DNA from: Escherichia coli
GTDB taxonomy: Bacteria; Pseudomonadota; Gammaproteobacteria; Enterobacterales; Enterobacteriaceae
Assembly (NCBI RefSeq): GCF_009931435.1
Contig: NZ_CP043414.1
DNA: 64,000 nucleotides
Reading direction: 5' to 3' (one strand)
Shown here: one piece after another, positions 49,801 through 52,800 of the stretch
How positions within the stretch are numbered: the stretch's first letter is position 1
Layout: every line of letters starts with the position of its first letter
Position numbers: made by a program

Positions 49801-52800
49801 GAGAGAGCGTGTCGATATGCGGGTAGCGCGTTTTCAGTCCGGCAAATGCTACAGCCATTTGGCGTGCAACTTCAAACTGCCTTACATATTCTGACTCAGG
49901 CGCAGGGATCGCCATCAGCCCGCGCAGACGTAAACGCGGTAGTTCAGCGACCGCAGCTGCCAGCTCGTCCAGTTCAGCCAGTTGAATCCCGGACTTACTG
50001 TTTTCATCACTAATATTAATTTGAATCAGTACGTTAAGAGGGGGAAGTTCTGCCGGGCGCTGGTCGTTCAGACGGGTAGCGATGCGCAAACGGTCGATGG
50101 TATGACACCAGTCGAAATGCTCTGCCACCAGGCGGCTTTTATTAGACTGCAACGGGCCAATAAAATGCCATTCTAATCCTGTGACGCCCAGTTCCTGAAA
50201 GTGGCGAATTTTATCTACCCCTTCCTGAACATAGTTTTCACCAAATTGACGCTGCCCGGCATCAATGGCTTCTGCGATGGCGCTCGCAGGTTTTGTTTTA
50301 CTGACTGCAAGCAGCGTAATTTCTTCTGGAGAACGACCGCAACGCGTTGCAGCCGCTGAGATTTTGTCCCGGACCTGTGCCAGGTTATGCGCAATATCGT
50401 TCATTTTCCGAGGATCTTAGTATGAATATGGAAGAAATTGTGGCCCTTAGTGTAAAGCATAACGTCTCGGATCTACACCTGTGCAGCGCCTGGCCCGCAC
50501 GATGGCGTATTCGCGGAAGAATGGAAGCTGCGCCGTTTGATGCGCCGGACGTGGAAGAGCTATTGCGGGAGTGGCTGGATGACGATCAGCGGGCAATATT
50601 GCTGGAGAATGGTCAGCTGGATTTTGCTGTGTCGCTGGCGGAAAACCAGAGATTGCGCGGCAGTGCGTTCGCACAACGGCAAGGCATTTCTCTGGCATTA
50701 CGGCTGTTGCCTTCGCACTGCCCGCAGCTCGAACAGCTTGGCGCACCACCGGTATTGCCGGAATTACTCAAGAGCCAGAATGGCCTGATTCTGGTGACGG
50801 GGGCGACGGGGAGTGGCAAATCTACCACGCTGGCGGCGATGGTTGGCTATCTCAATCAACATGCCGATGCGCATATTCTGACGCTGGAAGATCCTGTGGA
50901 ATATCTCTATGCCAGCCAGCGATGTTTGATCCAGCAGCGGGAGATTGGTTTGCACTGTATGACGTTCGCATCGGGGTTGCGGGCTGCATTGCGGGAAGAT
51001 CCCGATGTGATATTGCTCGGAGAGCTGCGTGACAGCGAGACAATCCGTCTGGCGCTGACGGCGGCAGAAACCGGGCATCTGGTGCTGGCAACATTACATA
51101 CGCGTGGTGCCGCGCAGGCAGTTGAGCGACTGGTGGATTCATTTCCGGCGCAGGAAAAAGATCCCGTGCGTAATCAACTGGCCGGGAGCTTGCGGGCAGT
51201 GTTGTCACAAAAGCTGGAAGTGGATAAACAGGAAGGAAGAGTAGCGCTGTTTGAATTGCTGGTTAACACACCCGCGGTGGGGAATTTGATTCGCGAAGGG
51301 AAAACCCACCAGTTACCGCATGTTATTCAAACTGGGCAACAAGTGGGGATGTTAACGTTTCAGCAGAGTTATCAGCAGCGGGTGAAAGAAGGGCGCTTGT
51401 GACGTTGCTGTGTCTGATACGAATTGTAAACATGCCCGATGTGCAAGCTTATCGGGCCAACAAGGGAAGCGTAACTTTGAATTCGCACTCACCGTAGGTT
51501 GGATAAGGCGTTTACGCCGCATCCAACATGAAACAACGAGCACATTGTCAGAAATCTGTGCGCTAGTAAATCGCCTTAATATCCCTGCTCGAAATAACTT
51601 TCGAGAATAATAACCGCAGAGGCAGAGTCAACTTTACCTTTGTTGAGCGCCCGATAGCCGCCCTGTTCGAACAGACCGGAGCGCGCTTCCACGGTGCTAA
51701 GCCGTTCATCATGGAGCTTAACTTCAACACCAAAACGGCCATGAATACGATTGGCGAATTTACGCGCCCGGGCAGTCAACGGTTGCTCGGTACCGTCCAT
51801 ATTCAGCGGCAAACCGACGATAATTTCGTCAGGTTGCCACTCTTTCAGTAAACGTTCGATAAGGTTCCAGTCCGGCGTACCGTCCTGCGCTTTAATTGCG
51901 GGCAGTGGGCGAGCGGTGCCGGTAATGCGTTGGCCGACCGCTACGCCAATGCTTTTGGTGCCGAAGTCGAAGGCGAGTAAGGTTCCACTCATCAGGCATG
52001 CCCTGCCACACCAGGCATGGTGAGAATATCCACACCAATCAGTTTTGCCGCATCGCGCCAGCGGTCGGCAATCGGTGTTTTGAACAGAATATTCAGATCT
52101 GCCGGGGCGGTTAGCCACGCGTTATCGAGAATTTCTTGTTCCAGTTGACCTTTCTCCCAGGAGGCATAGCCCAGAGCCACCAATACGTTAGACGGTTGTT
52201 TATCGGTGCCGAGCGTTTCCAGCACATCGCGGGAAGTGGTCATCACCGTGTTGTCTGAAATGCGAATGCTGGAAGCAAAATTGGAGGGCGGAGTATGCAA
52301 AATAAACCCGCGATCTTCAGCCAGTGGGCCGCCGAGCATAACCGGTTTATCCAGACGGATTGATTCATCACGCGGCTCCGGCGTGATCTTCAGCTTTTCC
52401 AGAATCCCTTCAATTTTGAGATTTTCCAGTGGCTTGTTGACGATGATACCCATTGCACCATTGGCATTATGTTCGCAAATGTAGACCACGGAACGACGGA
52501 AAATCGGATCCTGGAGAGCAGGCATGGCAATAAGAAAGTGATGCTGTAAATTCATTGTCAGAGGTTCTGTTTCCTGGTTCAAAAAAGCAACAGCGCCCAG
52601 TATGCGTGGAAAGAAGGGCGCTGTCACTCAGAGTCTCAACGAGATCCTTCTCGCTAAGGTGGGTTACTGCTGCTGTAAACGTGCTTCGATGGCATCCATT
52701 AACATTCCGGTGATCGACACCGGAAACTCTGCTTCAATCTCACGAATACAGGTTGGGCTGGTGACGTTAATTTCAGTCAGACGGTCGCCGATGATATCCA

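What the first reader, a model, noticed from the sequence alone, without database searches (positions are those of the whole stretch)
50347..50480. Back-to-back yggS and yggR start codons 17 bp apart
The yggS start (minus, 50404) and yggR start (plus, 50422) are separated by only 17 bp, so each promoter must lie inside the other gene's coding sequence. yggR encodes an orphan PilT-like retraction ATPase with no pilus genes nearby; the divergent overlap suggests coupled or mutually exclusive expression.
Basis: seen in the sequence. Interest (0 to 1): 0.22.

Follow-up and report, generated by a model that had tools for sequence, protein, structure and literature searches.

The report
Head-to-head yggS and yggR genes
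Two well-known E. coli genes, the vitamin-B6 homeostasis gene yggS and the pilus-retraction ATPase gene yggR, do start 17 bases apart on opposite strands, but this is the standard annotated layout in essentially every E. coli and a compact form of an old, already described gene pairing, so it is ordinary.

Summary
yggS (minus strand, ATG at 50404) and yggR (plus strand, ATG at 50422) are separated by exactly 17 bp, and both start codons are well supported. RefSeq annotates the same layout, including in K-12, and the stretch is present in 5,425 of 5,426 complete E. coli genomes.

The spacing is not an accident. It is 17 bp in 25 of 29 enteric species sampled (16 and 14 bp in two more) and 14-15 bp in relatives with only 50-61% PilT identity. 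More distant bacteria keep the same divergent yggS|pilT pairing at 33, 168 and roughly 480-630 bp. The pairing is already noted in the literature.

Both ribosome-binding sites sit in the spacer, so each promoter must lie within or beyond the partner gene. For yggS, the best candidate is a weak sigma-70-like promoter in yggR codons 12-22. It is conserved in 30 of 30 sequences, but a conserved PilT protein motif confounds this. No convincing yggR promoter was found.

"Coupled or mutually exclusive expression" remains untested, because I could not obtain any mapped transcription start sites. yggR is not a true orphan: pilin genes lie elsewhere in the genome. Verdict: real, known, low interest.

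The parts
49700..50404 (-). yggS coding sequence (PLP homeostasis protein, 234 aa), first gene of the yggS-yggT-yggU-rdgB-hemW array
   Evidence: TIGR00044 E=3e-104, 347 bits against a cut-off of 106. Matches PDB 1W8G over 1-234. RefSeq annotation.
50405..50421 (.). 17 bp spacer TTTCCGAGGATCTTAGT between the two start codons. It holds both translation-initiation regions.
   Evidence: The yggS-proximal part (CATTTTCCGAGGAT, counting the start-codon complement) is nearly invariant in enterics, and the 6-7 nt next to the yggR ATG vary.
50410..50413 (+). yggR Shine-Dalgarno sequence GAGG, 8 nt before the ATG. Its complement lies in the yggS leader.
   Evidence: Read from the sequence. Conserved as GAGGA, GGAGG or GGGAA in all enteric loci.
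50422..51402 (+). yggR coding sequence (PilT-family ATPase, 326 aa)
   Evidence: TIGR01420 PilT/PilU, 470 bits against a cut-off of 319. Pfam T2SSE. Closest solved structure is P. aeruginosa PilT 3JVU, E=4e-83. RefSeq annotation.
50422..50485 (-). Near-invariant 64-nt block (yggR codons 1-21). Candidate yggS promoter plus leader, read on the minus strand.
   Evidence: The alignment from Escherichia to Cedecea is almost invariant, third codon positions included, then collapses after about 50486. Synonymous identity is 0.85-0.91 against 0.51 for the rest of the gene. This is not specific: yqgE and gshB show similar 5' excesses, and the block encodes the conserved PilT motif SVKHN-SDLHL.
50456..50485 (-). 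Best conserved sigma-70-like hexamer pair for yggS: TGCACA-18 nt-TATGCT. An overlapping alternative is TGTAGA-17 nt-TACACT at 50477-50449. The predicted TSS is near 50441-50449.
   Evidence: Present in 30/30 sequences, with mean matches of 3.7 and 4.0 out of 6. It falls below the 9/12 threshold of the consensus scan. This is a prediction only.
50255..50341 (+). yggS codons 22-50, with excess synonymous conservation. Candidate location of the yggR promoter or regulatory region, 81-167 nt upstream of the yggR ATG.
   Evidence: Synonymous identity is 0.75-0.78 against 0.59 for the rest of the gene, the largest excess among the 7 genes tested (per-codon values). No convincing sigma-70 hexamers were found here. 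The segment lies mostly inside the part retained upstream of yggR in the Citrobacter duplication, which corresponds to window 50256-50573.

Best explanation
This is the ordinary, annotated yggS|yggR junction of E. coli: the most compact form of an old divergent gene pair, yggS (PLP-binding protein) and pilT (pilus-retraction ATPase).

Shown: the 17 bp spacer holds only the two translation-initiation regions.

Inferred: transcription of each gene therefore starts inside the partner's coding sequence, as face-to-face promoters whose transcripts overlap at their 5' ends.
- yggS most likely starts from a weak sigma-70-type promoter in yggR codons 12-22 (TGCACA-18-TATGCT, or the overlapping TGTAGA-17-TACACT). 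The TSS would be near 50441-50449, giving a 37-45 nt leader that is the exact antisense of the yggR Shine-Dalgarno sequence, AUG and first codons.
- yggR has no recognisable sigma-70 promoter. It is probably transcribed weakly, or only with an activator, from within the first ~150 nt of yggS.
- The expected consequence is asymmetric. The housekeeping yggS operon is little affected, and the rarely used yggR is, if anything, dampened by promoter occlusion and by antisense pairing over its ribosome-binding site. I regard this dampening as a likely by-product of compaction, not a dedicated switch.
For: Geometry and gene identity.

Conservation of the compact spacing: 17 bp in 25 of 29 enteric species, 16 and 14 bp in two others; 15 and 14 bp in relatives with 61% and 50% PilT identity.

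Ancient pairing at looser spacing: 33, 168 and about 480-630 bp, and published (PMC8787154, PMC9605639).

Candidate yggS promoter: the hexamer pair is conserved in 30/30 sequences inside a 64-nt near-invariant block with a sharp distal boundary.

Embedded element in yggS: codons 22-50 show the largest synonymous-site excess of seven genes. The same scan independently recovered the published NsrR site bound in vivo inside yggS (49850-49872), which shows the method detects real embedded regulatory DNA.

Natural experiment: in Citrobacter L023 and L028 an insertion at the junction is flanked by a 318 bp direct duplication (149 nt of yggS 5' end + 17 bp + 152 nt of yggR 5' end), leaving each intact gene with its native ~166-169 bp upstream.

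yggR is dispensable and fast-evolving: it is frameshifted in L031 and L034, truncated in some Shigella and E. coli clusters, disrupted in a Salmonella Saintpaul lineage (PMC8731237), and 71% identical between E. coli and Klebsiella while its neighbours are 82-93% identical (PMC3415461 supplement).
Against: No mapped TSS for either gene could be retrieved, so both promoter positions are predictions.

Both candidate yggS promoters are weak (7-8 of 12 consensus positions) and fall below the threshold of the consensus scan.

The synonymous conservation at the yggR 5' end is not specific. yqgE (0.82 against 0.54) and gshB (0.86 against 0.64) show similar excesses in codons 11-21, and the block encodes a conserved PilT N-terminal motif.

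yggS may also receive read-through from the co-directional ruvX operon (PMC7815308, Supplementary file 2).

The Citrobacter duplication could be a mechanical product of single-crossover integration and not evidence of selection for promoter retention.
Confidence: 0.62

Rival explanations
1. The compact head-to-head layout is a selected cis-antisense switch. Transcription of yggS and yggR is mutually exclusive, so pilus retraction is expressed only when the PLP-homeostasis operon is shut down, or the reverse.
For: The 14-17 bp spacing is kept across enteric genera and in relatives at 50-61% identity. Any yggS leader must be perfectly complementary to the yggR ribosome-binding site. A yggS mutant of Acidovorax citrulli is reported to have raised pilA expression (PMC8787154).
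Against: There are no expression data showing anticorrelation. Other proteobacteria keep the pair at 33 to more than 400 bp, so tight overlap is not required for whatever links the genes. yggR is repeatedly lost, which is unlike a maintained regulatory partner. Both candidate promoters are weak, and weak promoters rarely meet often enough to interfere; the abstract of PMC12825309 reports this for bidirectional promoters, a different geometry.
Confidence: 0.13
2. yggR has no dedicated promoter and is effectively silent. It is seen only as pervasive or read-through transcription antisense to the yggS operon, which is the refutation scenario the reader named.
For: No conserved sigma-70-like hexamer pair exists upstream of yggR. 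yggR is fast-evolving and often pseudogenised. It is hemmed in by opposing transcription at both ends.
Against: The reading frame is intact at exactly 326 aa in 26 of 28 enteric species tested, with all ATPase motifs, which implies selection on the protein and therefore expression. Its Shine-Dalgarno sequence is conserved. The nearest upstream plus-strand gene (yggM) ends 3.4 kb away, and a transcript from there would be untranslated antisense RNA, a typical Rho target. A terminator-like hairpin with a T-run lies on the plus strand at 50271-50300, although such hits occur at chance frequency. Microarray studies report condition-dependent yggR signal (PMC3511308, PMC4032248).
Confidence: 0.15
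3. A single symmetric bidirectional promoter in the spacer drives two leaderless mRNAs whose start sites (50404 and 50422) are 18 bp apart.
For: The 18 bp separation is the spacing I recall as typical of symmetric bidirectional promoters (Warman et al.; the library holds their preprint 10.1101/2020.01.31.928960, of which I saw only the abstract). The spacer centre AGGATCT gives A-N3-T on both strands (GAGGAT / GATCCT), present in 25-26 of 30 sequences.
Against: Each hexamer matches only 3 of 6 positions, the region is not AT-rich, and the -35 matches are poor (means of 2.0-2.3 of 6). yggR has a canonical, conserved Shine-Dalgarno sequence, which a leaderless mRNA would not need. The spacing varies (14, 15, 16, 17 bp), so the 18 bp relation is not kept.
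Confidence: 0.03
4. yggS is transcribed mainly by read-through from the co-directional rsmE-gshB-yqgE-ruvX operon across antisense yggR, not from a promoter inside yggR.
For: All genes in the ~8 kb array except yggR share one strand. In K-12, transcripts enter yggR antisense and are Rho-terminated near 3,094,341. About 30% of the upstream read density remains downstream without Rho inhibition (63 against 208 reads), rising to 200 against 217 with bicyclomycin (PMC7815308, Supplementary file 2).
Against: A significant Rho termination region exists there (score 3.0, p=6e-11), which argues that read-through is normally curtailed. The residual downstream reads may themselves come from a promoter in the yggR 5' end. 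In the Citrobacter insertion genomes yggS is cut off from the full yggR and ruvX yet remains an intact 234-aa gene with 169 bp of native upstream sequence.
Confidence: 0.07

Closest known systems
Divergent yggS|pilT gene pair of proteobacteria, as described for Acidovorax citrulli and other plant pathogens (PMC8787154; review PMC9605639)
   Same: The same two gene families, adjacent and divergently transcribed, with yggS followed by (proC and) yggT. I confirmed this in metagenomic and genomic loci L035-L040.
   Different: In E. coli and other enterics the gap has shrunk to 14-17 bp, proC is not in the cluster, pilU is absent, and the pilus genes PilT would serve are elsewhere in the genome. 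The distant loci have 33 to about 630 bp of true intergenic DNA.
PilT type IVa pilus retraction ATPases (e.g. P. aeruginosa PilT, PDB 3JVU/3JVV)
   Same: Full-length alignment (1-322 to 1-325, E=4e-83). Scores above the TIGR01420 cut-off. Walker A, Asp box, Walker B and His box are all present in the sequence.
   Different: About 45-50% identity to the distant PilT representatives sampled. The C-terminal AIRNLIRE-type motif reads AVGNLIRE. Retraction activity was not addressed here.
YggS / PLPBP (COG0325) PLP-homeostasis proteins (E. coli YggS, PDB 1W8G)
   Same: Essentially the same protein (E=7e-153, 1-234 to 1-234). Lys36 lies in the VSKTK motif.
   Different: Nothing of note.
Face-to-face (convergent, 5'-overlapping) promoter pairs and 'excludon'-type divergent antisense loci
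   Same: The geometry forces the two 5' ends to overlap, so each leader is antisense to the partner's translation-initiation region.
   Different: No overlapping transcripts have been demonstrated here. Excludons, as I recall them, involve a long antisense leader covering much of the neighbouring gene and genes of opposing function; neither is shown for this pair.
Symmetric bidirectional promoters of bacteria (Warman, Grainger and colleagues; PMC12825309)
   Same: Divergent genes, and an 18 bp distance between the two start codons.
   Different: That class is back-to-back with a shared AT-rich -10 between the two TSSs. Here the spacer is GC-containing ribosome-binding sequence with poor -10 and -35 matches.

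Membership tests
PilT/PilU family type IVa pilus ATPase | Scores above the curated cut-off of NCBIfam TIGR01420 over the full length | tested here: met
   470.4 bits against a cut-off of 319.1; residues 2-326 match profile positions 1-329 of 343.
PilT/PilU family type IVa pilus ATPase | Walker A, Asp box, Walker B and His box of secretion-superfamily ATPases | tested here: met
   GATGSGKST, LTLEDPVEY, DVILLGELRD and TGHLVLATLHT are all present in the translation. Pfam T2SSE E=2e-50.
PilT/PilU family type IVa pilus ATPase | PilT-specific C-terminal AIRNLIRE motif (recalled from the literature) | tested here: inconclusive
   The sequence reads AVGNLIRE, 6 of 8 positions. The motif definition is from memory and was not checked against a source.
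PilT/PilU family type IVa pilus ATPase | Drives pilus retraction | not testable with these tools
   Needs genetics or microscopy.
YggS / PLPBP (COG0325) | Scores above the TIGR00044 cut-off, single fold-type-III domain, PLP-binding lysine | tested here: met
   347.5 bits against a cut-off of 106. Pfam Ala_racemase_N. Full-length match to 1W8G. K36 is present.
Face-to-face overlapping promoter pair | Start codons closer together than one promoter footprint, so the promoters must be embedded in the opposing gene | tested here: met
   A 17 bp spacer occupied by both ribosome-binding sites.
Face-to-face overlapping promoter pair | Mapped primary TSSs on both strands whose transcripts overlap | not testable with these tools
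   The TSS tables I could reach were truncated, not held, or blocked by the paper cap. Only predictions are available.
Face-to-face overlapping promoter pair | Reciprocal effect of one promoter's activity on the other gene's expression | not testable with these tools
   Needs reporter fusions or promoter mutants.
Symmetric bidirectional promoter | A shared, roughly symmetric AT-rich -10 element between two divergent TSSs | tested here: not met
   The spacer centre GAGGATC gives 3 of 6 matches on each strand with poor -35 elements. yggR has a conserved Shine-Dalgarno sequence, which is inconsistent with a leaderless start.

The most novel reading that the evidence does not exclude
The 14-17 bp head-to-head layout, conserved across Enterobacterales, is a dedicated cis-antisense device. 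The yggS leader, which must be complementary to the yggR ribosome-binding site and first codons, silences the PilT homologue whenever the PLP-homeostasis operon is on. This would tie pilus retraction or DNA uptake to metabolic state, and would explain why E. coli type IV pilus functions are so hard to observe in the laboratory.
Probability: 0.1. Interest if true: 0.45.

Novelty: already known. Interest (0 to 1): 0.12.

Why it matters
The main value is as a caution and a small worked example.

Caution on knockouts: if the yggS promoter lies in yggR codons 12-22, as predicted, standard whole-gene deletions of yggR would remove it and could lower expression of yggS-yggT-yggU-rdgB-hemW. Likewise, yggS deletions would remove whatever drives yggR. 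Phenotypes assigned to either knockout could then be polar effects. This is my inference and needs testing.

Method: synonymous-site conservation across about 26 enteric species recovered a published NsrR site bound in vivo inside yggS. This suggests the approach can locate regulatory DNA hidden in coding sequence.

Beyond that, the locus adds one more example of overlapping divergent transcription units, a class that is already well documented.

Tried and rejected
1. Consensus promoter scan of 49600-51700: the only hit is unrelated (51631-51604, minus strand) and the count is at chance level.

2. Experimental TSS tables:
- Thomason 2015 is not held.
- The Ettwiller 2016 and Kim 2012 supplements had no rows for this region, and at least one of the Kim files is truncated in storage.
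- Conway 2014 has no supplements held.
So no TSS was obtained.

3. Sxy/CRP-S competence regulon: neither PMC1635313 nor PMC3330819 mentions yggR or pilT. By eye, the nearest CRP-S-like string (TGCGCAATATCGTTCA) has a poor second half-site. Dropped.

4. Synonymous conservation of the first 25 codons as proof of embedded promoters: rejected as specific evidence once control genes (yggT, rdgB, yqgE, gshB) showed the same start-of-gene effect. Only the excess at yggS codons 22-50 survives the control.

5. TTTACA (50456-50451, minus strand) as a -35 element: no acceptable -10 lies 16-18 nt downstream in E. coli, L035 or L036 (inspection).

6. Leaderless mRNAs from a shared -10: poor matches.

7. 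Rfam: nothing at the junction. The only hit is a sub-threshold REP-related naRNA4 match at 51497-51534.

8. Genome-wide distribution of divergent-gene spacing: not computed, because there is no annotation table in the scripting environment. Only the six local pairs were compared.
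Full report
**Observation**

The sequence shows the complement of 'cat' at 50402-50404 and 'atg' at 50422-50424, with the 17 bases TTTCCGAGGATCTTAGT between them.

The minus-strand ORF 49700-50404 is YggS. It scores 347 bits against TIGR00044 (cut-off 106), aligned 1-229 of 229, and matches the crystallised E. coli protein 1W8G residue for residue over 1-234. Its ATG is the only possible start, because an in-frame stop lies five codons upstream and no other start codon occurs in the first 50 codons.

The plus-strand ORF is a PilT-family ATPase. It scores 470 bits against TIGR01420 (cut-off 319), has the Pfam T2SSE domain, and aligns from residue 1 with residue 1 of P. aeruginosa PilT 3JVU. The mechanical ORF runs upstream to a TTG at 50347, which explains the finding's left coordinate. 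Only the ATG at 50422 is preceded by a Shine-Dalgarno sequence (GAGG at 50410-50413).

RefSeq annotates exactly this layout in the best-matching strain and in K-12 MG1655 (yggR start 3,095,080, yggS start 3,095,098). The junction is present in 5,425 of 5,426 complete E. coli genomes at 95-99% identity or better.

**Is it more than chance?**

One scan of the species-level genome collection returned 30 enteric loci. Of the 29 that include the upstream region:
- 25 have a 17 bp gap.
- A Klebsiella MAG has 16 bp and Cedecea has 14 bp.
- Two Citrobacter loci carry an insertion, described below.

The yggS-proximal part of the spacer, together with the start-codon complement (CATTTTCCGAGGAT), is almost invariant. 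The 6-7 nt next to the yggR ATG vary.

Representatives with only 61% and 50% PilT identity still have YggS upstream at 15 and 14 bp. More distant loci keep the divergent pairing, usually as yggS-proC-yggT, at 33 bp, 168 bp and about 480-630 bp. A Firmicute-like locus has no yggS at all.

In the annotated neighbourhood of this window, the six divergent pairs have gaps of 241, 152, 160, 17, 55 and 277 bp. That is a small sample, but 17 bp is the extreme value. So the tight spacing is a stable, inherited feature of the enteric lineage and a compaction of a much older gene pair. The pairing itself is already in the literature (PMC8787154; reviewed in PMC9605639).

**Where are the promoters?**

The spacer is taken up by the two translation-initiation regions, so transcription must start inside or beyond the partner gene. 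The simple consensus scan finds nothing nearby. I therefore used comparative evidence.

(a) Per-nucleotide alignment. Window 50422-50485 (yggR codons 1-21) is almost invariant from Escherichia to Cedecea, third positions included, and conservation collapses abruptly after about 50486.

(b) Footprinting across 30 sequences. On the yggS strand, one -10/-35-like pair is present in all 30: TGCACA-18-TATGCT (50485-50456), with an overlapping alternative TGTAGA-17-TACACT. Both are weak, matching 7-8 of 12 consensus positions. On the yggR strand nothing convincing is conserved.

(c) Synonymous-codon identity. It is 0.85-0.91 in yggR codons 2-21 against 0.51 for the rest of the gene. When I ran the same statistic on neighbouring genes, yqgE (0.82 against 0.54) and gshB (0.86 against 0.64) behaved similarly. 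The block also encodes the conserved PilT motif SVKHN-SDLHL. This signal is therefore compatible with an embedded promoter but does not prove one.

(d) What survives the control. yggS codons 22-50 (window 50255-50341) have a synonymous identity of 0.75-0.78 against 0.59, the largest excess of the seven genes tested. This region lies 81-167 nt upstream of the yggR ATG.

(e) Positive control. The scan also flagged yggS codons 171-188. This coincides exactly with a published NsrR binding site (AAGTTGCACGCCAAATGGCTGTA, window 49850-49872) that lies under a ChIP-seq peak upstream of yggT (PMC5320621). The method can therefore find real regulatory DNA inside coding sequence.

**A natural experiment**

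In Citrobacter youngae CCUG 30791 (L023) and C. portucalensis A60 (L028), 1.3-1.5 kb separates yggS from the intact yggR. Comparison with an uninterrupted Citrobacter locus (L032) shows that a 318 bp segment is directly duplicated on both sides of an AT-rich cargo. The segment comprises 149 nt of the yggS 5' end, the 17 bp spacer and 152 nt of the yggR 5' end.

Each intact gene therefore keeps about 166-169 bp of its native upstream sequence. This is what one would expect if both promoters lie within that distance. It could equally be the mechanical outcome of single-crossover integration of a circle carrying that fragment.

**Context on the other side**

yggR is the only gene of opposite orientation in a roughly 8 kb co-directional array: rsmE-gshB-yqgE-ruvX, then yggR, then yggS-yggT-yggU-rdgB-hemW.

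Published DirectRNA-seq with and without bicyclomycin places a Rho termination region at K-12 3,094,341, antisense to yggR. The Rho score is 3.0 and p = 6e-11. Read counts upstream and downstream are 208 and 63 untreated, and 217 and 200 with bicyclomycin (PMC7815308, Supplementary file 2). That position corresponds to about window 51161 on the minus strand.

So ruvX-operon transcripts run into the yggR 3' end, and a fraction may continue toward yggS.

**'Orphan' PilT**

No type IV pilus genes lie in the window. At about 18.4-35 kb it carries sslE, an ORF syntenic with pppA, and a gsp type II secretion cluster (GspD, GspE and GspF are above their equivalog cut-offs). These are related machines but not PilT clients as far as is known.

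K-12 has ppdC-ygdB-ppdB-ppdA about 131 kb away. From general knowledge, ppdD-hofBC and hofMNOPQ lie elsewhere in the genome. Because yggS|pilT is the usual position of pilT in many proteobacteria, yggR is better described as pilT left in its ancestral place than as an orphan.

yggR evolves faster than its neighbours (71% identity between E. coli and Klebsiella, against 82-93%). It is frameshifted or truncated in several lineages (PMC8731237). It is nevertheless intact at exactly 326 aa, with all ATPase motifs, in 26 of the 28 enteric species tested.

**Mechanism and rivals**

The best-supported reading (confidence about 0.6) is a pair of embedded, face-to-face promoters whose 5' ends overlap. 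yggS would start near 50441-50449, and its 37-45 nt leader would be antisense to the yggR ribosome-binding site. yggR would be weakly transcribed or activator-dependent. Any interference would be an asymmetric by-product of compaction.

The rivals and my estimates are:
- a selected mutually exclusive switch (0.13);
- yggR has no promoter of its own (0.15);
- yggS is fed mainly by read-through from ruvX (0.07);
- a shared symmetric -10 element driving two leaderless mRNAs 18 bp apart (0.03). The spacer centre matches only 3 of 6 positions on each strand, the yggR Shine-Dalgarno sequence is conserved, and the spacing varies from 14 to 17 bp.

None of these can be settled without TSS data, which I could not retrieve.

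**Verdict**

The feature is real, precisely as described, and stable in evolution. It is also the standard annotated layout of two well-characterised gene families, and the synteny is published. The regulatory inference is untested, and the 'orphan' label is misleading.

Novelty: already known. Interest is low (0.12). The one practical point is that whole-gene deletions of either gene probably remove the other's promoter.

Noticed in passing
L028:1533-3001 and L023:1728-3001 (Citrobacter portucalensis A60; C. youngae CCUG 30791): An AT-rich insertion sits exactly at the yggS|yggR junction, flanked by a 318 bp direct duplication of the junction. The cargo has two plus-strand ORFs: a 119-aa protein with no Pfam hit, containing Cys and His residues that could suggest a small hydrolase, and a 139-aa protein with a signal-peptide-like N-terminus that matches DUF3828. 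The pair resembles a toxin/immunity or effector/immunity module, which is unverified. In L023 the first ORF region is shorter.
   Followed up: partly
window 49850-49872 (-), inside yggS codons 178-185: An exact copy of the published NsrR site AAGTTGCACGCCAAATGGCTGTA (PMC5320621), about 170 nt upstream of yggT. It coincides with a peak of synonymous-site conservation (0.8-1.0 against a gene mean of 0.6). This suggests a conserved internal regulatory site, and perhaps an internal promoter, for yggT-yggU-rdgB-hemW.
   Followed up: yes
window ~51161 (-), inside the 3' part of yggR (K-12 3,094,341 +): A published Rho termination region antisense to yggR (PMC7815308, Supplementary file 2; Rho score 3.0). 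Transcripts of the convergent ruvX operon overrun into yggR.
   Followed up: partly
window 51403-51575: The 173 bp spacer between the convergent yggR and ruvX stops holds REP-type hairpins (GCCCGAT...ATCGGGC at about 51434-51458; GTTGGATAAGGCGT/ACGCCGCATCCAAC at 51498-51527). It also has a sub-threshold Rfam naRNA4 hit (36 bits against a gathering score of 59.5). K-12 has a 183 bp spacer here, but strain R32_14_1F has only 6 bp, so the element is polymorphic among E. coli.
   Followed up: partly
L044:4001-4507 (plasmid pEC16-AU-EG1, NZ_CP194962.1): A 5' fragment of yggR, whose match to the window begins at 50407 inside the 17 bp spacer, sits on a 243 kb plasmid between an IS200/IS605 transposase gene and blaCMY-2 with an IS1380-family (ISEcp1-like) transposase. 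This fits the published mobilisation of chromosomal blaCMY-2 from the yggR region (PMC6061673, seen only in the search listing; not read).
   Followed up: partly
window 50271-50300 (+), inside yggS codons 35-45: A terminator-like hairpin (CTGCGA-TGGCGC-TCGCAG) followed by TTTTGTTTT on the strand antisense to yggS, 122-151 nt upstream of the yggR ATG. It could block antisense read-through into yggR. However, such hits occur at chance frequency in this region (3 found against 2.4 expected), and the stem has a mismatch in Citrobacter.
   Followed up: partly
window 18377-35233: sslE (1,526 aa), a pppA-syntenic ORF and a complete gsp type II secretion cluster end directly at tRNA-Phe (pheV, 35158-35233). 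The best-matching strain, R32_14_1F, has in addition a roughly 21 kb island between yghD and the tRNA, with integrase genes next to the tRNA and defence-like genes (AbiEii toxin, DEAD-box helicase, TerB-N protein), that is absent from the window.
   Followed up: no
L031 (Leclercia adecarboxylata NCTC13032) and L034 (Citrobacter amalonaticus AUH_CA_2023_1), yggR at 3001-3980: yggR is frameshifted (10-11 in-frame stops when read from the ATG) while the 17 bp junction and yggS are intact. Several E. coli and Shigella protein clusters are also truncated (290-313 aa). Loss of yggR recurs without disturbing the junction.
   Followed up: partly
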